Below are positions 11,787-54,562 of a DNA stretch of 64,000 nucleotides, piece after piece. The notes under the pieces are model-generated. The model did no database searches. It saw nothing but the letters and a program-made list of their open reading frames with translations, and was not told the DNA's origin. Source of the stretch: Escherichia coli (lineage in GTDB: Bacteria; Pseudomonadota; Gammaproteobacteria; Enterobacterales; Enterobacteriaceae). The stretch is taken from assembly GCF_024502345.1 (NCBI RefSeq), contig NZ_JALDNN010000003.1. The stretch is one strand, 5' to 3'. How positions within the stretch are numbered: position 1 is the first letter of the stretch; each line of letters begins with the position of its first letter. The position numbers and the translations under genes are program-made.

Positions 11787-12606
11787 GGCACTGTTGCAAA
11801 GTTAGCGATGAGGCAGCCTTTTGTCTTATTCAAAGGCCTTACATTTCAAAAACTCTGCTTACCAGGCGCATTTCGCCCAGGGGATCACCATAATAAAATG
11901 CTGAGGCCTGGCCTTTGCGTAGTGCACGCATCACCTCAATACCTTTGATGGTGGCGTAAGCCGTCTTCATGGATTTAAATCCCAGCGTGGCGTCGATTAT
12001 CCGTTTCAGTTTGCCATGATCGCATTCAATCACGTTGTTCCGGTACTTAATCTGTCGGTGTTCAACGTCAGACGGGCACCGGCCTTCGCGTTTGAGCAGA
12101 ACAAGCGCGCGACCATAGGCGGGCGCTTTATCCGTGTTGATGAATCGCGGGATCTGCCACTTCTTCACGTTGTTGAGGATTTTACCCAGAAACCGGTATG
12201 CAGCTTTGCTGTTACGACGGGAGGAGAGATAAAAATCGACAGTGCGGCCCCGGCTGTCGACGGCCCGGTACAGATACGCCCAGCGGCCATTGACCTTCAC
12301 GTAGGTTTCATCCATGTGCCACGGGCAAAGATCGGAAGGGTTACGCCAGTACCAGCGCAGCCGTTTTTCCATTTCAGGCGCATAACGCTGAACCCAGCGG
12401 TAAATCGTGGAGTGATCGACATTCACTCCGCGTTCAGCCTGCATCTCCTGCAGCTCACGGTAACTGATGCCGTATTTGCAGTACCAGCGTACGGCCCACA
12501 GAATGATGTCACGCTGAAAATGCCGGCCTTTGAATGGGTTCATGTGCAGCTCCATCAGCAAAAGGGGATGATAAGTTTATCACCACCGACTATTTGCAAC
12601 AGTGCC
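11787..12606 (-). mobile_element. IS26-family insertion sequence, variant allele, inverted relative to the other two copies
   Basis: 820 bp bounded by 14-bp inverted repeats GGCACTGTTGCAAA / TTTGCAACAGTGCC; Tnp differs from the other two copies at three residues (EMQAERG vs EMLAERG; ALVLLK vs ALALLK; IIDATLG vs IIGATLG). Confidence 0.95.
11839..12543 (-). CDS. tnpA: IS26-family transposase Tnp26 (234 aa)
   Basis: MNPFKGRHFQRDIILWAVRWYCKYGISYRELQEM... matches the IS26/IS6-family transposase recalled from memory; start taken at the MNPFKG methionine. Confidence 0.95.
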   Translation of the reverse strand: MNPFKGRHFQRDIILWAVRWYCKYGISYRELQEMQAERGVNVDHSTIYRWVQRYAPEMEKRLRWYWRNPSDLCPWHMDETYVKVNGRWAYLYRAVDSRGRTVDFYLSSRRNSKAAYRFLGKILNNVKKWQIPRFINTDKAPAYGRALVLLKREGRCPSDVEHRQIKYRNNVIECDHGKLKRIIDATLGFKSMKTAYATIKGIEVMRALRKGQASAFYYGDPLGEMRLVSRVFEM

Positions 12607-12807
12607 GTTAATTCTGCTGGCGGTAGTCGTTTGGTTTACCCTGCCAGAGAGGAAAATACGGCAATTGGGCAAACAGCGTGCCACACCTCACTGATTAGGG
12701 TGTGGTTAACACTTCATTAATTAAACAGTCATTACTCTTACTTAACTGTGTGATATACCTATTTAGGGTTTGAAACATTAGAGTTTGAAATAGGTAAGGT
12801 CTGAGCA

Positions 12808-13953
12808 ATGACTGAGCAAACGTCCCCCGCACAACTTGATCTCGATAGCGCGGCTCAGCCCCCCAGAGTTTATATCCGGGGGGACTGGGTGTTGGCGCAT
12901 TACTGCGTTTTGGAGCCGCGCGTTGCGCAATTGCGCGCTAATATGCCCAGTGGGGGGGTATTTGATCTCAACCAACTGGGGGCGTTAGATACCGCCGGTG
13001 CAACGTTGTTAGCTCTGCTTCTGGGTGAGGACCGTGTAGCAAATTTACGCGAACTTGCGCCTAAATTGCCAGAAGAGCGGAGGATATTACTTGAAACGGT
13101 AAGCCATGTATTGCCTGACTTAACCCCTGAGTTGTCTGAAAAACCCACACGGTTTTGGCTTGAGATGCTGGCTAATACCGGCCGTTCGGTAGATAACTTA
13201 TGGCAAGATATTAAGTCACTATTGGGCTTTATTGGTCTGGCGCTGGAAACCTTGCTGGGAACACTTTTTCGCCCCTCCCGCTGGCGCATTACCTCATTAA
13301 TTGCCAATATTCAACAGATTGGCCTCAATGCTGTGCCGATCATTATGTTGCTCACCTTTTTGGTGGGGGCAGTTATCGCCTTTCTCGGTGCAACCGTACT
13401 CACTACTTTCGGCGCGGGCATTTTTACCGTCGATTTGGTGGTATTTTCTTTTCTACGTGAATTTGCGGTACTGCTTACCGCGATCCTGATGGCAGGGCGA
13501 ACAGCCAGTGCTTTTACCGCTGAAATTGGCTTGATGAAAGCCAATGAAGAGATTGATGCTATCCAAACACTGGGCTTGAATCCGGTCGAACTGTTGGTGC
13601 TACCGCGCGTCTTGGCACTATTGATCTCTCTGCCGATGCTAACCTTTATTGGCATGGTTTGCGGTATTTTCGGTGGCATGGTGGTGTGTGCCTTAACACT
13701 GGATATCTCTCCCACTATGTTTTTGTCGATTATGCAAAACAGTAATGGGTTGCAGCATTTTCTGGTGGGAATAAGTAAAGCCCCTATTTTTGCTTTCCTG
13801 ATTGCTATTATTGGCTGTCTGGAGGGGTTCAAAGTAACCGGTAGTGCTGAATCAGTCGGGGTTCATACCACCACCAGTGTGGTGCATTCGATCTTTGTGG
13901 TGATTTTGCTTGATGCCGTGGCAGCGCTATTTTTCATGGAAATGGGGTGGTGA
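12808..13953 (+). CDS. ABC transporter permease, MlaE family, with N-terminal STAS-like domain
   Basis: 381 aa; soluble N-terminal ~110 aa followed by multi-helix permease region (AVPIIMLLTFLVGAVIAFLGATVLTTFGAG...) typical of MlaE/YrbE permeases. Confidence 0.8.
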   Translation: MTEQTSPAQLDLDSAAQPPRVYIRGDWVLAHYCVLEPRVAQLRANMPSGGVFDLNQLGALDTAGATLLALLLGEDRVANLRELAPKLPEERRILLETVSHVLPDLTPELSEKPTRFWLEMLANTGRSVDNLWQDIKSLLGFIGLALETLLGTLFRPSRWRITSLIANIQQIGLNAVPIIMLLTFLVGAVIAFLGATVLTTFGAGIFTVDLVVFSFLREFAVLLTAILMAGRTASAFTAEIGLMKANEEIDAIQTLGLNPVELLVLPRVLALLISLPMLTFIGMVCGIFGGMVVCALTLDISPTMFLSIMQNSNGLQHFLVGISKAPIFAFLIAIIGCLEGFKVTGSAESVGVHTTTSVVHSIFVVILLDAVAALFFMEMGW

Positions 13954-13958
13954 GCCAA

Positions 13959-14750
13959 ATGACGCAAGATGCAATCATTCAAATTCGCGATCTGGTTAAC
14001 TGCTTTGGCGTACAGTGCGTGCATCAAGGGTTGAATCTTGATGTTAAGCGCGGCGAAGTTCTTGGCGTGGTTGGTGGCTCGGGTACCGGTAAATCTGTTC
14101 TGTTACGCAGTATTGTTGGGTTACGTCGTCCGACTGACGGGAAAATTCATGTTTTTGGCAAGGATTTAATGGCACTGTCAGGTCAATCCCGCGCCATGGT
14201 CGAGCGCCGATTCGGCGTATTATTTCAACGAGGCGCACTGTTCAGTTCTCTAACCGTGACCGAGAACGTGGCATTACCATTAATAGAAAACGCCGGATTA
14301 CCCCGGTCTGAGGCTGAGCGATTGGCTCAGGTTAAACTGGCACTGGCTGGGCTACCGCCGGGCACTGGCAGTAAGTATCCAGCATCTCTGTCGGGTGGTA
14401 TGGTCAAGCGTGTTGCGCTAGCCCGTGCCTTAGCACTGGACCCGGATATTCTGTTTCTTGATGAACCGACTGCGGGTCTTGATCCCATTGGTGCGGCGGC
14501 GTTTGACAGTTTGATCCGCACCCTGCGGGATGCCCTCAATCTAACGGTATTCTTGGTGACCCACGATCTGGATACGCTGTATACACTGTGTGATCGTGTG
14601 GCGGTGCTTTCGCAGAAAAAAGTGCTGGTGGTTGATACTCTGGATAAAGTTGCAGCGACTGATGATGGCTGGATTCAGGCGTATTTTCATGGCCCACGTG
14701 GCCGGGCTGCTTATCAGGCAGCGGCAATTAACAGTGGAGAGAGGTTGTAA
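13959..14750 (+). CDS. ABC transporter ATP-binding protein (MlaF-like)
   Basis: Walker A GGSGTGKS, ABC signature LSGGMVKRVALARAL, Walker B ILFLDEPTAGLD; ATG at 13959 follows the permease stop. Confidence 0.85.
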   Translation: MTQDAIIQIRDLVNCFGVQCVHQGLNLDVKRGEVLGVVGGSGTGKSVLLRSIVGLRRPTDGKIHVFGKDLMALSGQSRAMVERRFGVLFQRGALFSSLTVTENVALPLIENAGLPRSEAERLAQVKLALAGLPPGTGSKYPASLSGGMVKRVALARALALDPDILFLDEPTAGLDPIGAAAFDSLIRTLRDALNLTVFLVTHDLDTLYTLCDRVAVLSQKKVLVVDTLDKVAATDDGWIQAYFHGPRGRAAYQAAAINSGERL

Positions 14751-14751
14751 T

Positions 14752-15690
14752 ATGGAAACCCGTGCTCATCATGTCGTTATTGGTTTGTTCACTCTTATTG
14801 TGGTGAGTGCCGCGCTGCTGTTTTGCCTATGGCTGACAAATTCCGGTTCTGATCGCCAGTTCAGATTGTACGATATCGTTTTCAATGAGCCTGTGAGTGG
14901 CCTGTCACAGGGTAGCACCGTTCAGTACAGCGGGATTCGAGTCGGTGAGGTGACGCAATTACGCCTGGACCGAGACAATCCGAATAAGGTTTGGGCACGT
15001 ATTCGCGTTTCTGCATCTACTCCGATACGCGAAGATACCCAAGCTCGTCTCACCGTCGCGGGTATTACCGGCACCTCAAATATTCAATTCAGCAGTGGCA
15101 GCCAGACCAGCCCGTTGCTGGAGGGCAAAGATGACGAGGTTCCTATCATTATTGCTACCCCTTCGCCGATGAGCCAGTTACTGGCTAACGGTGAGAATTT
15201 CATGACCAATGCGAATGAAGTGTTGGTGCGTTTGAACCAGTTGCTGGCACCGGATAACCAGCAGCGCCTAGTAACGACACTGGATAATCTCGCGCTGGTC
15301 ACCCAAACTGTGGCTGATCAACGTGGTGATCTCCGTACCCTGTTGCAGCAGTTGGCGCAGGCCAGTAAACAGGCTAATGAGACACTGACTCAAACCAATC
15401 GCCTGCTGCGTAATGCTAACGGCTTAATGGATGGGCAGGGGAAACAACTGGTCAGTGATGCCGCCAAAACCATGGCATCGTTGCAAAATACCAGTACCAT
15501 CCTCAATAAATTGGTGAGTGAAAATAAAACCTCACTCAATAACGGGATGCAAGGGATGAATGAGCTGGGGCCGGCAGTAGATGAGCTGCGCAGAACATTA
15601 GCGACATTACGTGCCGCCGTTTCTCGTTTGGAAGAAAACCCAGCGGCCTTGTTGCGCGGCCGTGAAAGAACACAGGAGTTTACGCCTTAA
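14752..15690 (+). CDS. MCE-domain (MlaD/PqiB-like) periplasmic substrate-binding protein
   Basis: ATG at 14752 with GGAGAGAGG upstream; N-terminal single TM helix (HHVVIGLFTLIVVSAALLFCLWL) followed by an MCE-like domain and a Q/L-rich coiled-coil tail. Confidence 0.75.
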   Translation: METRAHHVVIGLFTLIVVSAALLFCLWLTNSGSDRQFRLYDIVFNEPVSGLSQGSTVQYSGIRVGEVTQLRLDRDNPNKVWARIRVSASTPIREDTQARLTVAGITGTSNIQFSSGSQTSPLLEGKDDEVPIIIATPSPMSQLLANGENFMTNANEVLVRLNQLLAPDNQQRLVTTLDNLALVTQTVADQRGDLRTLLQQLAQASKQANETLTQTNRLLRNANGLMDGQGKQLVSDAAKTMASLQNTSTILNKLVSENKTSLNNGMQGMNELGPAVDELRRTLATLRAAVSRLEENPAALLRGRERTQEFTP

Positions 15691-16331
15691 TGCTCTCTTT
15701 TAATGTGATGCGCTATGCAGGCCGCCGCGTGTGGCTATTGATGATATCCGGGGGGGCGATACTGCTCTCTGCCTGCACCATTTTACCTTCGGCCCCTGTA
15801 TCACAAGTTTATCTTCTGCCGGTGCCACCTGCAGTCAGTGTGCCACACGCGCAGACAGTAAACTGGTCATTACGGGTTTCACAACCGGCGACGAACCAGT
15901 TTCTTAATAGCTCACGCATAGCGGTGCAGCCTCAGGGCCAGGAGATTGCGGTTTATAAAAACTCCCGTTGGAGTGATTCGGCGCCGATTTTGGTGCGCAA
16001 TCGTCTTATTCAGGCGTTCCGTAGCGATGGGCGAATCCGTGCAGTCAGTAGCGACGATGATAGCTTGCAGGCTGATGTGGAGTTGAGTGGTGATCTGTCC
16101 GCGTTCCAAGGGGTATACCATGTTGGTAGCAGCGAAGTGCTGATCCGTTTTGATGCTCGGCTGGTAAGAATTTCAGATCGTAGGATTATTGCGACTCGCC
16201 AGTTTGACATTCGCCAACCGATAAAAGGTAACGAGATGAACGAGGTGGTTCAGGCCTTTGGCCTGGCCAGTGACCAGTTAGCCACTCAAGTGCTCAACTG
16301 GACGATGCAGCAATCCCCTGCGCAGGGTTGA
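15690..16331 (+). CDS. ABC-transport auxiliary lipoprotein (lipobox LLSAC)
   Basis: Start overlaps the preceding stop (TAATG coupling); signal peptide with lipobox LLSAC; position and size fit the lipoprotein partner of MCE systems. Confidence 0.6.
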   Translation: MLSFNVMRYAGRRVWLLMISGGAILLSACTILPSAPVSQVYLLPVPPAVSVPHAQTVNWSLRVSQPATNQFLNSSRIAVQPQGQEIAVYKNSRWSDSAPILVRNRLIQAFRSDGRIRAVSSDDDSLQADVELSGDLSAFQGVYHVGSSEVLIRFDARLVRISDRRIIATRQFDIRQPIKGNEMNEVVQAFGLASDQLATQVLNWTMQQSPAQG

Positions 16332-16349
16332 TATCTAAACCAGCACCGG

Positions 16350-16395
16350 TTGGTTTTATCTGAGGCGAGTTGGCAGTAGCTAACTCGCCTTTTTT
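16350..16395 (+). terminator. putative intrinsic terminator of the Mla/MCE-like operon
   Basis: Hairpin GGCGAGTT...AACTCGCC followed by TTTTTT shortly after the stop at 16331; coordinates approximate. Confidence 0.5.
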
Positions 16396-16678
16396 ATCGT
16401 CTAGTTTAATGATTCAAGGCGAATAATTGCGTCTAAGGGGAAAATATTCTCTTTATTGTTTTGTGATTAGTATCTCATTGAGTAAGGGATTAATGGTGTT
16501 TGAGTTATCTATTTCATTGTTTTTAATATGTTTTTATTTAAATTGTTCTGTGGTTATCTTTTTTGTTAAAGAGAACAATATTCTCCAAGCATTAAAAACA
16601 ACAAGAAAATAGGAAAAGTATTTCTCCCCGTAAAACCCTAAGATAAAAATAATCCAAATCACTGATTAATTACTTCAA

Positions 16679-17956
16679 ATGCAAAAAATAACACATCAAC
16701 AATTACTCGATTGGTTGAAAAAGGAAGTGAAACTTTCATTAGGTTGTACTGAGCCTATTGCTATTGCGTATGCTGCCGCAGTGGCTGCTAAATATCTCAA
16801 CGCACCGATATTAAAAATAACGGGGAATATATCGGAGAATCTGTATAAAAATGCGATGGGAGTCACTATTCCGGGAACAAGCTATTGCGGAGTCACTCTT
16901 GCGGCGGCAATAGGGGCTATTGGTGGTAACGCGGATGCCGATTTAGAAGTATTAAAAGATATTACTGCGACACAAATTACCGAAGCCTATATATTTAATG
17001 AATCAGGTAACGTGTGTCTAAACGCAGTAGATGCTACGGATTTTATTTTTATCGATATTACGCTATATAGTCTTAGTGATCAGTGCCGGGTAGTGATTCA
17101 AGGTAGCCATACTAATGTCACTGAAGTTTATATTAATAATATAAAGCAAATATTAGTCCGAGACCTAATTGCCGCCAATGATAGTGGGGTACTACCCGAA
17201 TTTTCCCTTAACGACGCATTTAAATTTGTAACCGATGTCGCCGCTAAAGACATCATGTTTATGCTGAAAAGTGCTGAGATTAATACCGCGCTTTCTGACG
17301 AGGGGCAAAGGAAGAACTATGGTTTGAACGTGAGTGGCGCGTTGTCGCAAGCCAGAAAAAATGGCTTTATCAGCACTGACTTACTGAGTCAAATGTTGAT
17401 CAACACCACTGCGGCATCAGATGCCCGTATGGGCGGCGCACCCTTACCCGCGATGTCAAATTATGGCTCTGGTAATCAGGGGATTACCGTGACAATGCCG
17501 GTAGTGACACTTGCCCGACATCTTAATACAGATGATGAAACACTGGCCCGGGCATTAGCGTTGGCCCATCTAGCCGCAATCTCAATTCATATGCGTTATA
17601 CCCGATTGTCTGCATTGTGTGCGGCGTCAACGGCAGCAATGGGGGCGGCGGCAGGTATGAGTTGGTTATTGACCCAAGATTTTCAAACTATCTCCTACGC
17701 GGTCAGTAATATGATCAGTGATATTAGTGGCATTATTTGCGATGGTGCATCAAATAGTTGTGCCATGAAAGTGTCTACCGCTACCGCCTGTGCATTTAAG
17801 TCGGTGTTGATGGCGCAACAAAATAGTGTTGCAGGGGAGCGTGATGGCATTGTTTCCTGCGATGTTGAAGGTTCTATCAATAATTTATGTAAATTAGTGT
17901 TATCGCCAATGAGGCAAACAGATAAAGAAATTATCAGTATAATGACACGTAAATAA
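16679..17956 (+). CDS. L-cysteine desulfidase CyuA/YhaM-family (serine dehydratase-like) protein
   Basis: 425 aa; N-terminal blocks LSLGCTEPIAIAYAAAVAA and GVTIPGTSYCG match the YhaM/CyuA family recalled from memory; AT-rich gene after a long AT-rich leader. Confidence 0.7.
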   Translation: MQKITHQQLLDWLKKEVKLSLGCTEPIAIAYAAAVAAKYLNAPILKITGNISENLYKNAMGVTIPGTSYCGVTLAAAIGAIGGNADADLEVLKDITATQITEAYIFNESGNVCLNAVDATDFIFIDITLYSLSDQCRVVIQGSHTNVTEVYINNIKQILVRDLIAANDSGVLPEFSLNDAFKFVTDVAAKDIMFMLKSAEINTALSDEGQRKNYGLNVSGALSQARKNGFISTDLLSQMLINTTAASDARMGGAPLPAMSNYGSGNQGITVTMPVVTLARHLNTDDETLARALALAHLAAISIHMRYTRLSALCAASTAAMGAAAGMSWLLTQDFQTISYAVSNMISDISGIICDGASNSCAMKVSTATACAFKSVLMAQQNSVAGERDGIVSCDVEGSINNLCKLVLSPMRQTDKEIISIMTRK

Positions 17957-18037
17957 ATATTACGGTTTAACCGCGTGGCCTAACGTCATTATTAATAATG
18001 ATCGGCGGGCTATCGTTAAAATTTAAAGGGACAAATA

Positions 18038-18557
18038 ATGAGCAAATCAAAATCGATCGCGACTCTGGTTATCCATGCCGGAGATCAAGTTGACCGGGGC
18101 AATAATGCTATTTTTCCACCGATTACTACCGCCAGTTCCTTCATTCAGCCAAATTTAGGCGAAGAAGGGGAGTTTTGTTATTCCCGTTGCAGTAACCCGA
18201 CAAGATATGCATATGAAACCGCCTTGGCTGAGTTGGAAGGAGGTATCTATGCTACGGCAACCGCTTCCGGTATGGCAGCAACTGCACTTATATTGGAATT
18301 GCTACCTAAGGATTCCCATGTATTAGTAATGAAAGGGGTCTATGGCGGTACTTATCGGTTGTTTGAACGTCTGCGTAAACAAACTTCAGGTACGACATTC
18401 AGTTATGTCGATCTTAATGATCTGGCGTCAGTAGAGCGCCATATTCAAGAGAATACAGGTCTAATCTGGATCGAAACGCCCACTAACCCACTGTTGGAAT
18501 TAGTTGATATTGAAGCAGTATGCCAGGTTGCCAAAAGCAGGGGCATAATGAGCTGCG
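18038..18557 (+). pseudogene. PLP-dependent cystathionine beta-lyase/gamma-synthase family gene, 3'-truncated by IS1
   Basis: N-terminal ~173 aa of a MetB/MetC-family enzyme (LVIHAGDQ..., SRCSNPTRYAYETALAELEGG, GLIWIETPTNPLL); the reading frame runs directly into the IS1 left end. Confidence 0.7.
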
Positions 18558-18612
18558 GGTGATGCTGCCAACTTACTGATTTAGTGTATGATGGTGTTTT
18601 TGAGGTGCTCCA

Positions 18613-18888
18613 GTGGCTTCTGTTTCTATCAGCTGTCCCTCCTGTTCAGCTACTGACGGGGTGGTGCGTAACGGCAAAAGCACCGCCGGACATCAGCGCT
18701 ATCTCTGCTCTCACTGCCGTAAAACATGGCAACTGCAGTTCACTTACACCGCTTCTCAACCCGGTACGCACCAGAAAATCATTGATATGGCCATGAATGG
18801 CGTTGGATGCCGGGCAACCGCCCGCATTATGGGCGTTGGCCTCAACACGATTTTCCGCCATTTAAAAAACTCAGGCCGCAGTCGGTAA
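18613..18888 (+). CDS. insA: IS1 InsA
   Basis: [43 protein letters not shown]... matches IS1 InsA. Confidence 0.9.
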
Positions 18889-19310
18889 CCTCGCGCATAC
18901 AGCCGGGCAGTGACGTCATCGTCTGCGCGGAAATGGACGAACAGTGGGGATACGTCGGGGCTAAATCGCGCCAGCGCTGGCTGTTTTACGCGTATGACAG
19001 GCTCCGGAAGACGGTTGTGGCGCACGTATTCGGTGAACGCACTCTGGCCACACTGGAGCGTCTTCTGAGCCTGCTGTCGGCCTTTGAGGTCGTGGTATGG
19101 ATGACGGATGGCTGGCCGCTGTATGAATCCCGCCTGAAGGGAAAGCTGCACGTTATCAGCAAGCGTTACACTCAGCGCATTGAGCGACATAACCTGAATC
19201 TGAGACAACATCTGGCAAGGCTGGGACGGAAGTCACTGTCGTTCTCAAAATCGGTGGAGCTGCATGACAAGGTCATCGGGCATTATCTGAACATAAAACA
19301 CTATCATTAA
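18807..19310 (+). CDS. insB: IS1 InsB reading frame (expressed as InsAB' by -1 frameshift)
   Basis: Frame encodes ...[28 protein letters not shown]... characteristic of IS1 InsB. Confidence 0.85.
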
Positions 19311-19412
19311 GTTGGAGTCATTACCAGAGTTTATTGTCAAATAAAAAGGCAGATTTCTCTGCCTTAATACACAATATACATAGTTCAAGGTACTATATAT
19401 AACGCAGGGGCG

Positions 19413-20603: not shown

Positions 20604-20808
20604 CTGAATACACTGTTTTTATTTACAGCTATTTTAGCACTGAGGTATCCACTTATGAACAGGTTCATAGCAACTAAAAAAGAGAGAGCGAGTACAACAA
20701 CGATCCGGAGATAAACATCAAATATTTGTGAAAAAAATTAGATTCTAGGGACAAAACGACATAAGATTGGGAAACCGTACTTTCGCGGGAAATAAATTAA
20801 GGTTGACC

Positions 20809-31032: not shown

Positions 31033-31033
31033 C

Positions 31034-43187: not shown

Positions 43188-43208
43188 CTTCAATTGGAGT
43201 CCAACATC

Positions 43209-45808: not shown

Positions 45809-45887
45809 GAGCGTGCCAAACCAAAATCTATGGATATGAGCATCCTCGATTCATGCCTCCATAGAAATGACATCGAAGGAGTCATAC

Positions 45888-46562: not shown

Positions 46563-46645
46563 GATGCCGGTCTGTCTCACTCTCATGCAAAGGTAAGATC
46601 AACCATTTAATCCGCTTACCCCAGAATAATAGGGAGTGCATATAA

Positions 46646-47557: not shown

Positions 47558-47568
47558 CACGGCCAAAA

Positions 47569-48388
47569 GGCACTGTTGCAAATAGTCGGTGGTGATAAAC
47601 TTATCATCCCCTTTTGCTGATGGAGCTGCACATGAACCCATTCAAAGGCCGGCATTTTCAGCGTGACATCATTCTGTGGGCCGTACGCTGGTACTGCAAA
47701 TACGGCATCAGTTACCGTGAGCTGCAGGAGATGCTGGCTGAACGCGGAGTGAATGTCGATCACTCCACGATTTACCGCTGGGTTCAGCGTTATGCGCCTG
47801 AAATGGAAAAACGGCTGCGCTGGTACTGGCGTAACCCTTCCGATCTTTGCCCGTGGCACATGGATGAAACCTACGTGAAGGTCAATGGCCGCTGGGCGTA
47901 TCTGTACCGGGCCGTCGACAGCCGGGGCCGCACTGTCGATTTTTATCTCTCCTCCCGTCGTAACAGCAAAGCTGCATACCGGTTTCTGGGTAAAATCCTC
48001 AACAACGTGAAGAAGTGGCAGATCCCGCGATTCATCAACACGGATAAAGCGCCCGCCTATGGTCGCGCGCTTGCTCTGCTCAAACGCGAAGGCCGGTGCC
48101 CGTCTGACGTTGAACACCGACAGATTAAGTACCGGAACAACGTGATTGAATGCGATCATGGCAAACTGAAACGGATAATCGGCGCCACGCTGGGATTTAA
48201 ATCCATGAAGACGGCTTACGCCACCATCAAAGGTATTGAGGTGATGCGTGCACTACGCAAAGGCCAGGCCTCAGCATTTTATTATGGTGATCCCCTGGGC
48301 GAAATGCGCCTGGTAAGCAGAGTTTTTGAAATGTAAGGCCTTTGAATAAGACAAAAGGCTGCCTCATCGCTAACTTTGCAACAGTGCC
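47569..48388 (+). mobile_element. IS26 copy 2
   Basis: 820 bp with 14-bp IRs GGCACTGTTGCAAA / TTTGCAACAGTGCC; Tnp identical to copy 3 in translation. Confidence 0.95.
47632..48336 (+). CDS. tnpA: IS26 transposase Tnp26
   Basis: 234-aa IS6-family transposase beginning MNPFKGRHFQRDIILWAV. Confidence 0.95.
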   Translation: MNPFKGRHFQRDIILWAVRWYCKYGISYRELQEMLAERGVNVDHSTIYRWVQRYAPEMEKRLRWYWRNPSDLCPWHMDETYVKVNGRWAYLYRAVDSRGRTVDFYLSSRRNSKAAYRFLGKILNNVKKWQIPRFINTDKAPAYGRALALLKREGRCPSDVEHRQIKYRNNVIECDHGKLKRIIGATLGFKSMKTAYATIKGIEVMRALRKGQASAFYYGDPLGEMRLVSRVFEM

Positions 48389-49389: not shown

Positions 49390-49500
49390 GCGTTCATTTT
49401 TGCACTGTGCAGAATGTGTCTTTTTGGCACCTTCCGACAGTGCAAAATTTATCGCGTTTTTGTGCAAAAAAAATCGCCGCGCTACAAAACGTGTGCTATA
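49390..49500. repeat. cluster of TTTTGCAC-containing repeats in both orientations (possible Mu-like transposable-phage end sites)
   Basis: TCATTTTTGCACTGTGCAG, CGACAGTGCAAAATTT and GTTTTTGTGCAAAAAAAATCGC lie just downstream of the invertase gene; related motif recurs near 52410-52475; coordinates approximate. Confidence 0.35.
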
Positions 49501-49622
49501 CTTGTGCTCATGCGGTTGGATTTCCTATCCCCCCGACCCGCGCTGCGGCGGGCCGAAAAATCCCAGGGATGGGTTTTTTCGGTGTTTTCCTCGTTGGCAC
49601 ATTCAAGAGTAAGGAGCGTTCC

Positions 49623-50231
49623 ATGAAGCTGTATTACACCCCCGGCGCCTGTTCCATGGCCCCGCACATCGCCCTGCGCGAAGCCGGCCTGAAATTCGAC
49701 CTGGAAAAGGTCGACCTGATGACCAAGAAAACCGAATCGGGCGCCGACTTCACCGCCATCAATCCCAAAGGCTACGTGCCGGCGCTGCAGCTCGACAACG
49801 GCCAGGTGCTGACCGAGGTCGGCGTGGTGCTGCAATACATCGCCGACCAGAAGCCGGGCAGCGGACTGGCCCCGGCCGCCGGCACGCTCGAGCGCTACCG
49901 CCTGATGGAGATGCTGAATTTCATCTCCACCGAGCTGCACAAGAACTTCGGTCCGCTGTTCAACCCGGCGGCCGGCGACGACGCCAAGAAAGCAGCCATC
50001 GAGATGATCGGCAAGCGCCTTGGCTACCTCGACCAGCAGCTGGCCGGCAAGCAGTATCTGCTCGGTGACACCTTCACGGTGGCCGACTGCTACCTCGCCA
50101 CCATGCTCGGCTGGTGCCAGTACGCCAAGCTCGACCTGTCGGCCTGGCCGAACATCGGCGCTTACGCCGGCCGCGTGATGAGCCGCCCGGCGGTGATCGA
50201 GACGATGAAGGCCGAAGGCCTGATGGGCTGA
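49623..50231 (+). CDS. glutathione S-transferase
   Basis: ATG at 49623 with AAGGAG upstream; 202 aa; GST N- and C-terminal domain blocks (MKLYYTPGACSMAPHIALREAGL..., DTFTVADCYLATML); high GC. Confidence 0.8.
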   Translation: MKLYYTPGACSMAPHIALREAGLKFDLEKVDLMTKKTESGADFTAINPKGYVPALQLDNGQVLTEVGVVLQYIADQKPGSGLAPAAGTLERYRLMEMLNFISTELHKNFGPLFNPAAGDDAKKAAIEMIGKRLGYLDQQLAGKQYLLGDTFTVADCYLATMLGWCQYAKLDLSAWPNIGAYAGRVMSRPAVIETMKAEGLMG

Positions 50232-50314
50232 GGGCCACCTGCCGATGCGGCGCGGGTCACGCCCGCGCCGCACGGCGTCAATCCATACCCCCCATCGATT
50301 CCCCAGGAGCCCCC

Positions 50315-51106
50315 ATGCTCGTCGAACGCATCTGGACCGGTAATTCGTACCGCAACTTCAACTACCTGATCGCCTGCCCCGAGACCGGCGAAGCGCTGGC
50401 GATCGATCCGCTGGACCATGAAAAAACCCTGAACACGGCCAGGGTCAAGGGCTGGCAGATCACGCAGATCCTCAACACGCACGAGCACCACGACCACACC
50501 GGCGGCAACGCGGCCGTGGTGGCGGCCACCGGCGCCAAGGTGATCGCGCACCACAAGGCCGCGGGCAAGATCGAAGGCATGGACCGCGGCGTGAAGGCCG
50601 GGGACGTGATCAAGGTCGGCCGGCACATCGAACTGGAATGCCTGGACACGCCCGGCCACACGATGTGCCACATCTGCCTGCGCTCGCACACCGACGAGCC
50701 GGCGCTGTTCTCCGGCGACACGCTGTTCAACGCGGGCGCGGGCAACGTGCACTACGGCGGCAGCGTGGACGAGCTCTACACCACCTTCGTGCAGCAGCTC
50801 GCGAAGCTGCCGGAGAACACCCGCGTCTACCCGGGGCACGACTACATCGAGAACAACCTGCGCTTCACGCTCGCGCGCGAGCCCGGCAACGCGGCCGCGC
50901 AGGCATTGCTGCCGCGGGTGACCGGGCATGACCCGGCCACTTCGGTGGTCACCACGCTGGCCGAGGAGAAGCGCTTCAACACCTTCTTCCGCCTGGCCAG
51001 CCCCGAGGTGATCGCCAAGCTGCGCGAGAGCTTTCCCGAGCTGCCGGAACAGCCCGACGCGAAGACCGTGTTCACCAAGCTGCGCGAGCTGCGCAACCAG
51101 TGGTGA
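50315..51106 (+). CDS. MBL-fold metallo-hydrolase (hydroxyacylglutathione hydrolase / glyoxalase II-like)
   Basis: ATG at 50315 with CAGGAG upstream; metal-binding motif THEHHDHTGG; ~263 aa; high GC. Confidence 0.75.
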   Translation: MLVERIWTGNSYRNFNYLIACPETGEALAIDPLDHEKTLNTARVKGWQITQILNTHEHHDHTGGNAAVVAATGAKVIAHHKAAGKIEGMDRGVKAGDVIKVGRHIELECLDTPGHTMCHICLRSHTDEPALFSGDTLFNAGAGNVHYGGSVDELYTTFVQQLAKLPENTRVYPGHDYIENNLRFTLAREPGNAAAQALLPRVTGHDPATSVVTTLAEEKRFNTFFRLASPEVIAKLRESFPELPEQPDAKTVFTKLRELRNQW

Positions 51107-51151
51107 GCAGCGGCCGGCGCCGGCCCCTTACTTCAGCGTGAACCGCACGGT

Positions 51152-52165
51152 GTGCACTTCCATGTCTGCGCAGTCGATGGCGTGTTTGAGGAAGTGGCGG
51201 GCGAGGAGGGCGATGCTGCTGATGCAGCTTCTCAAAGCTCACCATCGCGCATCATCTTCCACCCCGCCACCGGCGTGACTGCGGATGCCGTGGGTCAGGT
51301 GCAGGCCAGCTTACGCAAACGCATCCTGCGCGCCTTTGTCGGACGGGGCCTGCTGGAGAGTTTCGAGGCCCAAGAGATGCTGGGCTACAAGCACAGCGGG
51401 TTTTCGGTGGACACCAGCGTGTGCATAGCGGCGCACGACCGCGCCGGGCTGGAGCGGCTGCTGCGCTACTGCGCCCGCCCGCCGTTTGCCATGGAGCGGC
51501 TGCGCAAAGCGGGCAGCGAGCTGGTCTACCGCTGCGCCAAGCAGCACAGCGAGCCCGGCAGCCTGCCTCACAACAAGCGCGGCGTAAAGGCCGATGAGAT
51601 CACCCTCACCCCGCTGGAGCTGATTGAACGTATCGCCAAGCTGGTGCCCCCGCCGCGCACGCACCGCCACCGCTACTTTGGCGTGCTGGCACCGAACTCA
51701 CCCTTGAGGCCTGCCGTCACGGCGCTGGCGCGTGATGCAGCGGTGAAACCGGCGCAGGTGCAAGCCGAGCCAGCCAGCACGGCTGCAGGCGAGGGCGCAC
51801 TTGGGGTAAGAAGCCCACTGCCAACCCAGACCGAGCCCGCCCAGCCGGTGCCACCCAAGCGCCCGGCGCACTATTTGTGGGCGGTGCTGATGGCCCGTAT
51901 CTACGAGGTGTTCCCGCTGCTGTGCCCCATCTGCGGCGGGCAAATGCACATCATCGCCTTCATCACACACAGTGCCGATATCCGCCAAATACTGGAGCAC
52001 ATCGGGGTGGAGACGGAGCCGCCGCACATCACCCCGGCACGCGGGCCGCCACTGTGGGACGAGTGCGACGCGCAAGCCGCAGAGGGCGTGGAGCCAGCCC
52101 CAGACTGGGATGAAGCGACCCAACCGGCCCCGGACTTCGAGGTCGATCAGCGCGTCAGTTGGTAG
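51152..52165 (+). pseudogene. IS91-family (rolling-circle, HUH) transposase, C-terminal fragment
   Basis: No credible N-terminus; retains blocks HFHVCAVDGVF, RYFGVLAPNSPLR and zinc-ribbon-like LCPICGGQMHIIAFIT followed by ILEHIGV..PP, as recalled for IS91-family transposase C-termini. Confidence 0.55.
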
Positions 52166-52399
52166 GGTGGCAACAGCGGTTAACAGTGGTTTTGCCAACG
52201 TTGCGAGGCAGCGCTGCGCCTGTCACCGCCAAAAACGGGTCATACCGAAAAATCTCGGGCAACTGGCTTTGAGAAATCAACCCAGCAGTCCCCTGTGTGC
52301 ATGCCTGAGACGCCCCAAACTGTGGGGAGGTGATCGTTTTTGCATGGGGGAGAGGTCTTGATAAAATGCCGGGAGGGCTTGCGGTAAGCGAGATTGAGA

Positions 52400-52480
52400 G
52401 AAAAACTGAGTTTTGCACTACTAAAAAAGAAATGAGAAAAAATAGCTATTTTTGCGTTTAATTTTGCACTTTTATGAAAG
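52400..52480. repeat. TTTTGCAC-containing direct repeats upstream of the Mu-like c/ner module (possible transposable-phage left-end sites)
   Basis: GAGTTTTGCACTACTAAAAAAGAAA and TAATTTTGCACTTTTATGAAAG about 45 bp apart; same core motif as the 49.4-kb cluster; coordinates approximate. Confidence 0.3.
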
Positions 52481-52582
52481 TCTTTAGATCCGTTTTAAAG
52501 ACCGTTTAAGCATTTATCAATGCCAGGCACTATACCGTATAGTAGGTTGGTATGTAAGAAGTTGGCTCTGACACCATCTAGC

Positions 52583-53215
52583 TTAAACGGCCTTCTTGTC
52601 TTCACTTGTTAGGCCAGATTCGGCTGCCTTCTGATCAAGTTCAGATGACCCTTTTTTCATCTGCTCATGTATTCGAAGTAAGCGCTCTTGTTCTGCTTGT
52701 GGTAGTTCTACCAGTACGCTGAGCGTATCGTTATATTTCGAGAGAAGATCTAGTACACCTCTAACCCCCATCCTTGCATAGATATCGATGAGTTTCTTTT
52801 TCTCATCGTGGTCTAATGCTTCAAAAAACATTGCCCATGTTAGAGATAAAAATTTGTCATCCTTAAGTGGCACTGCTGTAAATGCGAAAGGACTTGAGCC
52901 ATCGGTTAAACCATTCTCTATGATTGGTTGAGCCTGTCCATTGCTGCTATGAGCTTCATCCAACATGTAGACGCCATCCTTACCGGTCGCTAGCCACGCA
53001 AGGCTCACGTTTTCTATCTCTGAAATTTTCACCAGGATTTCCACACTCGGAGTGGCTGAACGTGCGAAGTAGTTGTTCAGCGTCGAGTATGGCAGGTCCC
53101 AATCTAGAGAAACTTTCCTGAGACTTCTCCCTTTGAAAAGAGACTTCATCCTATCGCGAATACTTTCTTTTCCTGATTGAGCAAAAGAAACATTCTCTTT
53201 CTTTACTGTATTCAT
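52583..53215 (-). CDS. Mu-like phage repressor c homologue (HTH)
   Basis: 210 aa; divergent from and adjacent to the ner-like gene as in phage Mu; C-terminus ...DKKAV as in Mu Repc (...KKAV); HTH-like N-terminal region. Confidence 0.55.
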   Translation of the reverse strand: MNTVKKENVSFAQSGKESIRDRMKSLFKGRSLRKVSLDWDLPYSTLNNYFARSATPSVEILVKISEIENVSLAWLATGKDGVYMLDEAHSSNGQAQPIIENGLTDGSSPFAFTAVPLKDDKFLSLTWAMFFEALDHDEKKKLIDIYARMGVRGVLDLLSKYNDTLSVLVELPQAEQERLLRIHEQMKKGSSELDQKAAESGLTSEDKKAV

Positions 53216-53397
53216 TTTCTTTTCCTTTTAACTGGTTGAAATAATTAATTAAAATTGATTTTCTCACCTGAGTTTTCTCACATGAGAAAAGAAAGAGCTT
53301 TATTTGCTTTACTCTTTCTCAAATTGGATCAATACTTATCCCAACGGATAACCCCTGCGGATTATCCGCCCGGTTAACTTTTTAGGGTAATCGAAGT

Positions 53398-53625
53398 ATG
53401 GAAATAAATGAAGTACAGCGTGACTGGCATCGCATTGATATTGTCGCCGAGCTGCACAAGCGTGGCGTCACTATGCGCGGCCTTTCCGCCAGCGCGGGAC
53501 TAAAACCCGACACGCTGAAAAATGCGCTGGCACGCTCTTATCCAAAAGGAGAGCGCATTATTGCAAATGCTCTCAATTTAGAACCCGCCAGTATCTGGCC
53601 AAGCCGTTACAACAAGGACCTGTGA
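53398..53625 (+). CDS. Ner-like DNA-binding protein (Mu Ner / Nlp family)
   Basis: 75 aa; RDWHRIDIVAELHKRGVTMRGLSASAGLKPDTLKNALARSYPKGERIIANALNLEPASIWPSRY parallels Mu Ner (RDWHRADVIAGLKKRKLSLSALSRQFGYAPTTLANALERHWPKGEQIIANALETKPEVIWPSRY). Confidence 0.75.
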   Translation: MEINEVQRDWHRIDIVAELHKRGVTMRGLSASAGLKPDTLKNALARSYPKGERIIANALNLEPASIWPSRYNKDL

Positions 53626-53742
53626 CATGTTCGTGACTGTTAACGAATTAGTTGGCGTCCCTGGACTGCCAACAACACAACAAGGACTGCGATACAGCCT
53701 TAAAAAAAGTGCAGGCAACTCCCCTGAACTGGTTCGCAAACG

Positions 53743-54562
53743 GGCACTGTTGCAAATAGTCGGTGGTGATAAACTTATCATCCCCTTTTGCTGATGGAGC
53801 TGCACATGAACCCATTCAAAGGCCGGCATTTTCAGCGTGACATCATTCTGTGGGCCGTACGCTGGTACTGCAAATACGGCATCAGTTACCGTGAGCTGCA
53901 GGAGATGCTGGCTGAACGCGGAGTGAATGTCGATCACTCCACGATTTACCGCTGGGTTCAGCGTTATGCGCCTGAAATGGAAAAACGGCTGCGCTGGTAC
54001 TGGCGTAACCCTTCCGATCTTTGCCCGTGGCACATGGATGAAACCTACGTGAAGGTCAATGGCCGCTGGGCGTATCTGTACCGGGCCGTCGACAGCCGGG
54101 GCCGCACTGTCGATTTTTATCTCTCCTCCCGTCGTAACAGCAAAGCTGCATACCGGTTTCTGGGTAAAATCCTCAACAACGTGAAGAAGTGGCAGATCCC
54201 GCGATTCATCAACACGGATAAAGCGCCCGCCTATGGTCGCGCGCTTGCTCTGCTCAAACGCGAAGGCCGGTGCCCGTCTGACGTTGAACACCGACAGATT
54301 AAGTACCGGAACAACGTGATTGAATGCGATCATGGCAAACTGAAACGGATAATCGGCGCCACGCTGGGATTTAAATCCATGAAGACGGCTTACGCCACCA
54401 TCAAAGGTATTGAGGTGATGCGTGCACTACGCAAAGGCCAGGCCTCAGCATTTTATTATGGTGATCCCCTGGGCGAAATGCGCCTGGTAAGCAGAGTTTT
54501 TGAAATGTAAGGCCTTTGAATAAGACAAAACGCTGCCTCATCGCTAACTTTGCAACAGTGCC
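53743..54562 (+). mobile_element. IS26 copy 3
   Basis: 820 bp with the same 14-bp IRs; interrupts a molybdoenzyme gene on its right side. Confidence 0.95.
53806..54510 (+). CDS. tnpA: IS26 transposase Tnp26
   Basis: Identical in translation to copy 2. Confidence 0.95.
   Translation: MNPFKGRHFQRDIILWAVRWYCKYGISYRELQEMLAERGVNVDHSTIYRWVQRYAPEMEKRLRWYWRNPSDLCPWHMDETYVKVNGRWAYLYRAVDSRGRTVDFYLSSRRNSKAAYRFLGKILNNVKKWQIPRFINTDKAPAYGRALALLKREGRCPSDVEHRQIKYRNNVIECDHGKLKRIIGATLGFKSMKTAYATIKGIEVMRALRKGQASAFYYGDPLGEMRLVSRVFEM

What the first reader, a model, noticed from the sequence alone, without database searches (positions are those of the whole stretch)
11787..54562. Three IS26 copies delimit the accessory block; copy 1 is inverted and a different allele, and no copy has flanking 8-bp duplications
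Copies 2 and 3 are in direct orientation with identical Tnp translations and bracket a 5.35-kb segment (48389-53742). Copy 1 is inverted and differs at three Tnp residues, consistent with independent acquisition. The 8 bp flanking each copy do not match each other (ttcaggaa / gttaattc; ggccaaaa / gaagaaac; cgcaaacg / gttttact), indicating IS26-mediated cointegration or deletion rather than simple insertions. Copy 3 abuts a truncated chromosomal molybdoenzyme gene, marking one junction between accessory DNA and backbone.
Basis: seen in the sequence. Interest (0 to 1): 0.45.

Follow-up and report, generated by a model that had tools for sequence, protein, structure and literature searches.

The report
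IS26 mosaic on an IncHI plasmid
Three copies of the well-known insertion sequence IS26 stitch together foreign DNA blocks on a large IncHI-type plasmid, including a captured piece of Citrobacter chromosome; this is the usual way IS26 builds mosaic plasmids, so the finding is real but ordinary.

Summary
There are three complete 820-bp IS26 copies, at 11787-12606 (-), 47569-48388 (+) and 53743-54562 (+). Copy 1 encodes Tnp26 with L35Q/A148V/G184D. Copies 2 and 3 differ only at non-coding position 789. None of the six 8-bp flanks match each other, directly or as reverse complements.

- **Replicon.** The window is not a chromosome with an island. It is a close relative (99.9-100%) of the IncHI1A-typed E. 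coli plasmid NZ_LR890350.1.
- **"Backbone" right of copy 3.** This is Citrobacter freundii-complex chromosomal DNA (95-96% identity to Citrobacter, 79% to E. coli). In the sibling plasmid it is a 16.5-kb passenger closed by a further IS26, which would lie about 7 kb beyond the window.
- **Left edge.** Accessory DNA already starts about 1.4 kb left of copy 1.
- **Copy 1.** It sits at a junction shared by at least 27 plasmids. The five relatives I inspected carry canonical Tnp26 there and a sixth carries a C533T allele, so independent insertion is unlikely. The window has lost 159 bp next to this copy.
- **Copy 2.** Copy 2 plus 3.9 kb of the 5.35-kb segment is contiguous in an IncL/M plasmid. 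The segment is a circularly permuted Mu-like prophage remnant, which fits arrival as a one-IS26 circle.

Known biology; low interest.

The parts
1..10385 (.). IncHI-type plasmid backbone, with a Tus-like terminus-binding protein gene at about 8216-9175 and 13 hypothetical genes
   Evidence: 99.9% identical over its full length to IncHI1A/IncHI1B-typed plasmids of 250-450 kb; 281 records cover at least 80% of window 1-12000. Gene positions mapped from the NZ_LR890350.1 annotation using the offsets.
10386..11786 (.). Start of the accessory DNA: a left-truncated ISSen4-like IS3-family element (about 10535-11625), then a 160-bp fragment of a RecD-like helicase gene cut by IS26 copy 1
   Evidence: This module is shared with MOBH/MPF_T plasmids that have a different backbone, such as pCFR-4109. 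ISSen4 hits end at about 11625. Bases 11626-11786 match a helicase gene in CP082740.1.
11787..12606 (-). IS26 copy 1, a variant allele (T167A, C506T, G614A) giving Tnp26 L35Q/A148V/G184D. Flanks TTCAGGAA / GTTAATTC.
   Evidence: The exact protein is WP_256632887.1 (E. coli), seen on a single 198-kb contig in the 15-billion-protein collection.
12607..47568 (+). 34,962-bp block between copies 1 and 2. It holds an Mla-like ABC transporter (12808-16331), L-serine ammonia-lyase, IS1, a tyrosine recombinase, hha, Tn7-like tnsABCDE (26528-34151), a heat-resistance cluster (hsp20, clpK, cls, ftsH, sHSP20-GI, yfdX1/2, hdeD-GI; 35830-45805) and an MscS-family channel gene (46646-47557).
   Evidence: 99.98% identical to NZ_LR890350.1 54238-89199. 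Annotation taken. The block starts 159 bp further in than in related plasmids.
47569..48388 (+). IS26 copy 2, canonical sequence (789G). Flanks GGCCAAAA / GAAGAAAC.
   Evidence: The left junction (mscS|IS26) is shared with many plasmids and with E. coli chromosomes. The right junction and the 789G allele are shared with the IncL/M plasmid OW968028.1.
48389..49486 (+). Right end of a Mu-like prophage: truncated tail-fibre assembly gene (48410-48709), Gin/Hin-type invertase (48820-49380), terminus ...GCGCTACA ending at 49486
   Evidence: Pfam Caudo_TAP and Resolvase+HTH_7. 97% identical to the right end of an intact Mu-like prophage in NZ_CP056853.1.
49487..52320 (+). 2,834-bp GC-rich spacer of betaproteobacterial/pseudomonad type: glutathione S-transferase (49623-50231), hydroxyacylglutathione hydrolase-like gene (50315-51106), IS91-family Y2 transposase fragment (51152-52165)
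   Evidence: 99.6-99.9% hits in Azonexus, Burkholderia, Pseudomonas, Comamonas and Acidovorax plasmids. Pfam GST_N/GST_C, Lactamase_B+HAGH_C, Y2_Tnp. GC 0.61-0.67.
52321..53742 (.). Left end of a Mu-like prophage: terminus TGTGGGGAGG..., c-type repressor (52583-53215, - strand), Ner-like regulator (53398-53625, + strand); cut by IS26 copy 3 before the transposase gene
   Evidence: Pfam Phage_CI_repr and HTH_35. Hits at 71-82% identity lie next to Mu transposase genes. The terminus is shared with NZ_CP056853.1 and an IMG/VR contig.
53743..54562 (+). IS26 copy 3 (canonical Tnp26, G789C). Flanks CGCAAACG / GTTTTACT.
   Evidence: The right junction and the 789C allele are identical to IS26 at 95128-95947 of NZ_LR890350.1.
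54563..64000 (+). Captured Citrobacter freundii-complex chromosomal segment: 3' 227 codons of a DmsA-family molybdoenzyme gene (54563-55246), DmsB-like 4Fe-4S subunit (55243-55800), DmsC/YnfH anchor (55800-56567), uspG, rnk, a hydrolase, a flavin reductase, rna, citT, citG, citX... The segment runs off the window.
   Evidence: One mismatch in 10,259 bp to NZ_LR890350.1 95127-105385. 91-96% identical and collinear to chromosomal contigs of four named Citrobacter species (87-88% to a fifth, unnamed Citrobacter sp.), about 79% to E. coli. Pfam results. The intact gene in C. youngae is shown.

Best explanation
The window is part of a large IncHI-type conjugative plasmid whose accessory region is an IS26-built mosaic. 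All three IS26 copies are junction-makers between unrelated DNA blocks, not simple insertions.

(1) Copy 1 is an old resident at a junction (helicase fragment | IS26 | ABC-transporter module) that many plasmids share. In this lineage the 159 bp next to its IRL end were lost, most simply by an IS26 intramolecular 'in cis' adjacent deletion. Its sequence also came to differ at three bases, probably by exchange with another IS26 allele.

(2) Copy 3 is the resident IS26 that joined the plasmid to a Citrobacter chromosome. IS26 copy-in cointegration into a DmsA-like gene, followed by a second IS26 event about 16.5 kb downstream, would release a plasmid carrying the dmsBC-uspG-rnk-rna-citTGXFEDC-dpiBA segment between two direct IS26 copies. 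This is R-prime-like capture. The second IS26 is expected about 7 kb beyond the window.

(3) Copy 2 arrived together with the 5.35-kb segment as a 6,174-bp circle containing one IS26 (a translocatable unit or equivalent). The circle was incorporated at the resident IS26 either by the Tnp26 targeted conservative reaction or by homologous recombination within IS26. The result is two direct copies and no target duplication.

What is shown: the structures, the shared and unique junctions, the alleles, the Citrobacter origin, and the circular permutation of the segment. What is inferred: the order of events and which enzyme (Tnp26 or RecA) made each join.
For: Replicon identity. Window 1-12606, 12607-48388 and 53742-64000 align at 99.9-100% to NZ_LR890350.1 (IncHI1A, MOBH, MPF_F; 300,631 bp) at 32018-44622, 54238-90019 and 95127-105385.

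Copy 1.
- 29 records and 27 hold the same left flank, IS26 and right neighbour, with 159 extra bp.
- None has the window's exact right junction, and none has an IS-free 'empty site'.
- The relatives carry canonical Tnp26 WP_001067855.1 at this site or a C533T allele.
- Differences from the sibling plasmid are 3 in 820 bp inside copy 1, against 0 in the adjacent 7.2 kb and 7 in the 35 kb to the right. My Poisson estimate for this excess is about 5e-4.

Copy 3 and the Citrobacter DNA.
- Alignment to Citrobacter chromosomal contigs (up to 1.57 Mb) starts exactly at 54563, the first base after copy 3, and is collinear.
- In the sibling plasmid the segment ends at a sixth IS26 in the same orientation at 112430, itself interrupted by an IS66-family element.

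Copy 2 and the 5.35-kb segment.
- IS26 plus the first 3,936 bp is contiguous at 99.9% in the IncL/M plasmid OW968028.1, whose IS26 has the same 789G. Copy 3 and the sibling's resident copies have 789C.
- The segment has the Mu-like right end, a 2,834-bp spacer and the Mu-like left end. Both junctions carry AAAC and together rebuild the uninterrupted site CCCCAAAC^GTGTGCTATAC seen in OW968028.1. That is a circular permutation.

Literature.
- Targeted conservative IS26 incorporation gives direct copies without a target duplication (PMC4196232).
- Intramolecular IS26 transposition gives deletions without tell-tale duplications, and more than half of 70 IS26 copies surveyed had unmatched 8-bp flanks (PMC4471558).
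Against: - The window ends before the predicted fourth IS26, so the closed IS26-bounded structure of the Citrobacter segment is inferred from one sibling plasmid only.
- No reads are available, so the two junctions unique to this window (copy 1 right, copy 3 left) are not independently verified.
- RecA-dependent recombination between IS26 copies gives the same products as the Tnp26 conservative reaction, so the enzyme cannot be assigned.
- The 159-bp loss could instead come from a larger deletion in a sibling-like ancestor (record 44623-54237, which includes two more IS26 copies).
- The circular permutation could also arise from recombination between repeated IS91-like sequences, or from two prophage copies flanking the spacer.
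- The three base changes in copy 1 occur in only one public assembly and could be errors.
Confidence: 0.78

Rival explanations
1. One reading: a bacterial chromosome carries an accessory island delimited by IS26, and copy 3 marks the island/chromosome junction inside a native molybdoenzyme gene.
For: The DmsA-like gene and its neighbours are chromosomal genes in Citrobacter and are collinear with Citrobacter chromosomes. If the source organism were a Citrobacter with an IS26-integrated IncHI plasmid, the window would look the same up to base 64000.
Against: The segment has one mismatch in 10,259 bp to an E. coli plasmid, where a further IS26 closes it after 16.5 kb. It is only 87-96% identical to the Citrobacter species representatives. 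The only public protein identical to the copy-1 transposase is from E. coli, on a 198-kb contig. The left end of the window is IncHI plasmid backbone, not chromosome.
Confidence: 0.07
2. The joins at IS26 were made purely by host homologous recombination. All present arrangements, including the allele differences, would then come from RecA-dependent crossovers or gene conversion between IS26 copies on co-resident plasmids, with no recent Tnp26 activity.
For: IS26 copies are 820-bp near-identical repeats. The allele pattern (789G on the copy travelling with the segment, 789C on the resident copy, a variant allele at a conserved junction) only requires a crossover somewhere within the IS.
Against: Homologous recombination between IS26 copies cannot remove the 159 bp of unique DNA next to copy 1. 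It also cannot create the original IS26|Citrobacter junction inside a gene. Those steps need transposase-type events. For the 5.35-kb segment the two routes cannot be told apart from sequence.
Confidence: 0.3
3. Assembly or sequence artefact: one or more IS26-spanning joins are mis-assemblies, and/or the three copy-1 substitutions are errors.
For: Two junctions (copy 1 right, copy 3 left) and the copy 2/copy 3 combination are not found in PLSDB or in complete E. coli genomes. The triple-variant Tnp26 is seen in one assembly only. All three changes are non-synonymous.
Against: Four of the six junctions are independently present in other complete assemblies. The DNA on both sides of copy 1 is the same pair of neighbours as in at least 27 plasmids. 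The copies carry copy-specific SNPs, which collapsed or duplicated repeats would not show. 614A (G184D) exists independently in an IS26 of OW968028.1.
Confidence: 0.08

Closest known systems
IS26 (IS6/IS26 family) and IS26 pseudo-compound transposons / translocatable units (Harmer, Moran & Hall 2014, PMC4196232; He et al. 2015, PMC4471558)
   Same: 820 bp, perfect 14-bp terminal repeats, and a 234-aa Tnp26 with D78/D138/E173. Direct copies bracket a unique segment. There are no 8-bp duplications. A deletion lies adjacent to one copy. The IS copies sit at the boundaries of unrelated DNA blocks.
   Different: The bracketed segment carries no antibiotic-resistance gene. It holds a Mu-like prophage remnant plus gst/gloB. 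Copy 1 is a rare triple-substitution allele (L35Q/A148V/G184D).
E. coli MSB1_9D plasmid 2 (NZ_LR890350.1; IncHI1A, 300,631 bp)
   Same: Same backbone, the same 35-kb Tn7-like/heat-resistance block, the same mscS|IS26 junction, the same IS26|Citrobacter junction and the same Citrobacter segment (99.9-100% identity).
   Different: The sibling has 9.6 kb more DNA, with two extra IS26 copies, to the right of copy 1. It carries a different 5.1-kb segment (ferritin-like gene, IS5, relE/parE) between the copies that correspond to copies 2 and 3. It has canonical IS26 at the copy-1 site and 789C at the copy-2 site.
IS26 variant with Tnp26 G184N (IS26-v1 / IS26*), reported to have raised cointegration activity (Pong et al. 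2019, as cited in PMC9019673)
   Same: Copy 1 is changed at the same residue, G184. GGC to GAC is the one-step intermediate on the way to AAC.
   Different: The residue here is Asp, not Asn, and it comes with L35Q (inside the HTH domain I13-R53 defined in PMC8477213) and A148V. Activity is unknown.
R-prime / F-prime-type capture of chromosomal DNA by plasmids, and IS26-mediated mobilisation of chromosomal genes
   Same: A chromosomal segment from another genus sits on a conjugative plasmid between direct IS copies, with one end inside a truncated gene.
   Different: The cargo is a citrate-fermentation and DMSO-reductase-like locus rather than a resistance gene. The formation pathway is inferred, not observed.

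Membership tests
IS26 (IS6/IS26 family insertion sequence) | 820-bp element bounded by perfect 14-bp inverted repeats GGCACTGTTGCAAA | tested here: met
   Three 820-bp copies. Six exact terminal-repeat matches, at their ends only, against 0.07 expected.
IS26 (IS6/IS26 family insertion sequence) | Single 705-bp tnp26 gene encoding a 234-aa DDE transposase (D78, D138, E173) | tested here: met
   Copies 2 and 3 encode the canonical 234-aa Tnp26, the same protein as WP_001067855.1 annotated at an identical IS26 in the sibling plasmid. Copy 1 encodes a 234-aa variant that keeps D78, D138 and E173 (residue roles from PMC8477213).
IS26 (IS6/IS26 family insertion sequence) | 8-bp target-site duplication after copy-in transposition to a new site | tested here: not met
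   No matching flanks, direct or reverse-complement, in the window or against 10 IS26 copies of the sibling plasmid. This is expected for conservative incorporation, deletion or recombination, and is common for IS26 (PMC4471558). It does not argue against IS26 identity.
IS26 pseudo-compound transposon / translocatable unit | Two IS26 copies in direct orientation bracketing a unique segment, with no duplication of the IS or of a target | tested here: met
   Copies 2 and 3 are both on the + strand and bracket 5,354 bp. The outer flanks GGCCAAAA and GTTTTACT are unrelated.
IS26 pseudo-compound transposon / translocatable unit | The same IS26-plus-segment unit found in another context | tested here: inconclusive
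   IS26 plus the first 3,936 bp is contiguous in IncL/M plasmid OW968028.1, but the last 1.4 kb is absent there. The segment is circularly permuted relative to a single Mu-like insertion site.
IS26 pseudo-compound transposon / translocatable unit | Detectable circular form (one IS26 plus the segment, 6,174 bp) | not testable with these tools
   Needs outward-facing PCR or long reads from the source strain.
IncHI-group conjugative plasmid | Backbone homology to plasmids typed IncHI (replicon, MOBH relaxase, MPF_F) | tested here: met
   Window 1-10385 is 99.9% identical to plasmids typed IncHI1A or IncHI1B / MOBH / MPF_F by MOB-suite.
IncHI-group conjugative plasmid | Replication initiator and transfer genes present on the same molecule | not tested
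   These genes lie outside the 64-kb window.
DMSO-reductase-family (DmsABC/YnfEFGH-type) molybdoenzyme operon of Citrobacter | Catalytic subunit with a molybdopterin dinucleotide-binding domain, a 4Fe-4S subunit and a DmsC-type anchor, in chromosomal synteny | tested here: met
   Pfam Molydop_binding, Fer4_11 and DmsC. Collinear with Citrobacter chromosomal contigs at 87-96% identity. The intact 756-aa gene with a twin-arginine signal is present in C. youngae, and copy 3 removes its first 529 codons.
Mu-like transposable prophage (remnant inside the 5.35-kb segment) | TG...CA termini; c repressor and ner at the left end; tail-fibre and invertase genes at the right end | tested here: met
   Termini TGTGGGGAGG... 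and ...GCGCTACA are shared with an intact 34.7-kb Mu-like prophage in NZ_CP056853.1. Pfam Phage_CI_repr, HTH_35, Caudo_TAP and Resolvase. The transposase genes themselves are absent here.

The most novel reading that the evidence does not exclude
Two readings remain open. First, the IS26-bounded 5.35-kb segment may be a natural 'fossil' of a circular one-IS26 intermediate. Its two Mu-like prophage junctions are the two sides of a single insertion site, placed inside-out, which would be sequence-level proof that the unit passed through a circle before being incorporated at a resident IS26. Second, copy 1 may be a functionally altered transposase. Its G184D change is at the residue where G184N raises activity, and it also has an HTH-domain change, L35Q.
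Probability: 0.2. Interest if true: 0.4.

Novelty: already known. Interest (0 to 1): 0.2.

Why it matters
This is a textbook example of how IS26 assembles mosaic regions on large conjugative plasmids, so it adds no new principle. Three details are useful.
- The 'chromosomal' genes are Citrobacter DNA riding on an E. coli-associated IncHI plasmid. That changes how the locus should be annotated and shows non-resistance metabolic cargo (a citrate fermentation and DMSO-reductase-like operon) being moved by IS26.
- The conserved junction with changing IS26 alleles shows that IS alleles turn over at fixed sites, so allele differences are poor evidence for independent insertions.
- The circularly permuted segment gives a testable candidate for translocatable-unit movement in nature.

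Tried and rejected
- **Matching 8-bp flanks.** I looked for direct and reverse-complement matches, allowing one mismatch, among the three window copies and the 10 IS26 copies of the sibling plasmid. Only the three shared junctions matched.
- **IS-free 'empty site' for copy 1.** I searched its two flanks joined together. No record has them adjacent without IS26.
- **Source record.** No PLSDB plasmid or complete E. coli genome contains the copy 2 - segment - copy 3 arrangement. The last 1.4 kb of the segment has no megablast match in E. coli genomes and only 71-82% hits in plasmids.
- **Exact-protein contig look-up.** The look-up for the variant Tnp26 found no contig on record, so I could not read the source contig beyond the window.
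- **Mu-like left terminus.** An exact-pattern scan of viral contigs found nothing with 27 nt and two relatives with 20 nt. Neither was inserted at the same site.
- **TSD of the Mu-like element.** I considered a 5-bp duplication and rejected it. Both here (AAAC) and in NZ_CP056853.1 (CCAC) only 4 bp are repeated if the ends are TGT...ACA. This is left unexplained.
- **IS15DI.** I considered that copy 1 might be IS15DI or another named isoform. I could not confirm any named isoform with L35Q/A148V/G184D. An IS15-labelled cluster member has Y143N/G184N instead.

Full report
**1. The observation**

A self-comparison of the window finds one 820-bp sequence three times: 11787-12606 inverted relative to 47569-48388 and 53743-54562. 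Direct extraction confirms three full-length copies that begin GGCACTGTTGCAAATAGTCGG and end CTTTGCAACAGTGCC. The 14-bp terminal repeat occurs exactly six times, at these ends only, against 0.07 expected by chance, so there are no solo ends or partial copies.

Copy 1 differs from copy 2 at IS26 positions 167, 506 and 614. Copy 3 differs from copy 2 only at position 789, downstream of tnp26. Translating the copies gives identical canonical Tnp26 for copies 2 and 3, and L35Q/A148V/G184D for copy 1.

No pair matches, directly or as reverse complement, even with one mismatch allowed.

**2. What replicon this is**

The first 12 kb matches IncHI-typed plasmids of 250-450 kb at 99.9%. The features under the match are a Tus-like terminus-binding protein and 13 hypothetical genes.

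The closest relative is E. coli MSB1_9D plasmid 2, NZ_LR890350.1 (300,631 bp; MOB-suite IncHI1A, MOBH, MPF_F). The alignment between window and record is as follows:

| Window | Record NZ_LR890350.1 |
|---|---|
| 1-12606 | 32018-44622 |
| 12607-48388 | 54238-90019 |
| 48389-53741 | absent from the record |
| 53742-64000 | 95127-105385 |

The window is therefore a sibling of this plasmid, not the same molecule.

The exact copy-1 transposase sequence exists once in the 15-billion-protein collection. It is WP_256632887.1 / MCQ7034504.1 from E. coli, on a 198-kb contig. That is very likely the source, but the contig could not be retrieved.

**3. The DNA right of copy 3 is captured Citrobacter DNA, not backbone**

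Window 54300-64000 has one full-length plasmid match, the sibling. Otherwise it matches only E. coli chromosome-like DNA (including chromosome-sized records filed in the plasmid collection) at about 79% across the rna-cit region.

A protein-guided scan of species-representative genomes found the locus in Citrobacter youngae, C. portucalensis, C. werkmanii and other Citrobacter. These contigs reach 1.57 Mb. Nucleotide identity is 87-96% (91-96% to the four named species) and collinear, and the alignment begins exactly at 54563, the first base after copy 3.

In C. youngae the interrupted gene is a 756-codon DmsA-family gene with a twin-arginine signal. Copy 3 removes its first 529 codons. The remaining product has a Molydop_binding domain and is followed by Fer4_11 and DmsC proteins.

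In the sibling plasmid the Citrobacter segment runs 16.5 kb, through citTGXFEDC and dpiBA. It ends at another IS26 in the same orientation, which is itself split by an IS66-family element. That IS26 would lie about 7 kb beyond the window.

The sibling's accessory region runs for about 170 kb. It has 10 IS26 copies and several chromosome-like metabolic modules (cit, glg, scr, malT).

**4. Copy 1**

Its left flank is a 160-bp helicase-gene fragment preceded by an ISSen4-like remnant. This module begins near 10386 and also occurs on plasmids with a different backbone, so accessory DNA starts left of copy 1.

Twenty-nine records and 27 records hold the same left flank, an IS26 and the same right-hand ABC-transporter module, always with 159 extra bp next to the IS. 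No record has the window's exact right junction. No record joins the flanks without an IS.

In the five relatives inspected, the IS26 at this site encodes canonical Tnp26. In pCFR-4109 it carries C533T.

Differences between the window and the sibling plasmid are distributed unevenly:

| Region | Differences |
|---|---|
| 4529-11786 (7.2 kb left of copy 1) | 0 |
| Copy 1 (820 bp) | 3 |
| 34,962 bp to the right of copy 1 | 7 |

At the flanking rate, 0.15 differences would be expected in 820 bp. My Poisson estimate for seeing three or more is about 5e-4.

My reading is that the IS at this site is ancient and shared. Its allele was replaced or mutated, and 159 bp were removed by an adjacent deletion. 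Adjacent deletion is the 'in cis' intramolecular outcome described for IS26, and it leaves no diagnostic duplication (PMC4471558).

The single change G614A (G184D) occurs on its own in an IS26 of the IncL/M plasmid OW968028.1. That same plasmid shares the copy-2 unit described below.

G184 is the residue whose G184N change is reported to raise activity (Pong et al. 2019, as cited in PMC9019673). [quoted passage not shown] The functional effect of the triple variant is unknown.

**5. Copies 2 and 3 and the 5.35-kb segment**

The mscS|IS26 junction to the left of copy 2 is widespread. It is found on plasmids and on some E. coli chromosomes.

Copy 2 plus the first 3,936 bp to its right is contiguous at 99.9% in OW968028.1. 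The IS26 there has 789G, like copy 2. Copy 3 and both corresponding copies in the sibling plasmid have 789C. The allele pattern fits copy 2 arriving with the segment and copy 3 being the resident copy.

The segment has three parts.
- **Right end of a Mu-like prophage.** It holds a truncated tail-fibre assembly gene and a Gin/Hin invertase, and its terminus ...GCGCTACA ends at 49486.
- **A 2,834-bp GC-rich spacer.** It carries gstA, a gloB-like gene and an IS91-family transposase fragment. Its best hits are in Azonexus, Burkholderia, Pseudomonas and Comamonas plasmids.
- **Left end of a Mu-like prophage.** Its terminus TGTGGGGAGG starts at 52321, followed by a c-type repressor and ner. Copy 3 cuts it before the transposase gene.

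An intact 34.7-kb relative of the phage sits in C. freundii plasmid NZ_CP056853.1 and has the same termini.

The sequence left of the left end (...CCCCAAAC) and the sequence right of the right end (AAACGTGTGCTATAC...) together rebuild a site that is uninterrupted in OW968028.1. The segment is therefore circularly permuted. The two sides of one phage insertion face outwards towards the IS26 copies, and the phage's flanking DNA lies in the middle.

The simplest route is a 6,174-bp circle carrying one IS26 that was incorporated at a resident IS26. That is exactly the translocatable-unit model, which predicts direct IS copies and no target duplication (PMC4196232). Recombination between the repeated IS91-like sequences, or two phage copies flanking the spacer, are alternatives I could not exclude.

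**6. Comparison with what is known, and verdict**

Everything here matches established IS26 behaviour:
- cointegrate formation;
- conservative incorporation next to an existing IS26;
- adjacent deletion;
- frequent absence of matched 8-bp flanks, seen for more than half of 70 copies surveyed in PMC4471558.

The 'chromosome/backbone' reading and the 'independent acquisition' of copy 1 are not supported.

The items that are new in detail are a rare triple-variant Tnp26, two junctions not seen in PLSDB, and a circularly permuted Mu-like remnant. They do not amount to a new kind of element. Interest is low. The main practical value is correct annotation: an IncHI plasmid carrying Citrobacter-derived cargo.

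Noticed in passing
window 48389-53742: The IS26-bounded segment is an 'inside-out' Mu-like prophage remnant. The right end (tail-fibre assembly gene, gin, terminus at 49486) and the left end (terminus at 52321, c repressor, ner) flank a 2,834-bp GC-rich spacer. The two junctions rebuild one uninterrupted site (CCCCAAAC^GTGTGCTATAC) seen in OW968028.1. Only 4 bp (AAAC) are duplicated, as also in the intact relative (CCAC), not the 5 bp expected for Mu.
   Followed up: partly
window 26528-45805: Tn7-like tnsABCDE (26528-34151) is followed directly by a heat-resistance cluster (hsp20, clpK, cls, ftsH, sHSP20-GI, yfdX1, yfdX2, hdeD-GI; GC up to 0.67). This suggests a Tn7-like transposon carrying a locus of heat resistance. 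Its ends were not mapped.
   Followed up: no
window 49487-52320: The gstA, gloB-like gene and IS91-family transposase fragment are 99.6-99.9% identical to DNA on Azonexus, Burkholderia, Pseudomonas, Comamonas and Acidovorax plasmids. This is environmental betaproteobacterial/pseudomonad DNA now on enterobacterial plasmids. A 46-bp sequence (AAACGTGTGCTATACTTGTGCTCATGCGGTTGGATTTCCTATCCCC) is repeated at the module boundaries in OW968028.1.
   Followed up: partly
window 10386-11786: An ISSen4-like IS3-family element lacks its left end (homology to intact copies starts near 10535; right end at about 11625). It sits in a RecD-like helicase gene fragment. The module is shared with MOBH/MPF_T plasmids that have a different backbone.
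   Followed up: partly
L001/L002/L020/L021 (NZ_LR890350.1 42-214 kb): The sibling plasmid has about 170 kb of accessory DNA with 10 IS26 copies and several chromosome-like metabolic modules (citrate lyase/dpiAB, glgBCAP-pgm, a sucrose PTS, malT). Its sixth IS26 (112430) is interrupted by an IS66-family element. Two IS26 copies (136887 and 186507) share the same left flank, TACAAAAG.
   Followed up: partly
L018 (OW968028.1) 575-1394 and about 5179-6000: The IncL/M plasmid that shares the copy-2 unit also has an IS26 with G614A alone (Tnp26 G184D). The IS26 next to the shared segment has a damaged left terminal repeat (GCCCTGTTGCAAA).
   Followed up: no
window 1-4528: All 10 backbone differences from the sibling plasmid (9 substitutions and 1 indel) lie in the first 4.5 kb, and there are none in 4529-11786. 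This is an uneven divergence pattern that could mark a recombination boundary in the backbone.
   Followed up: no
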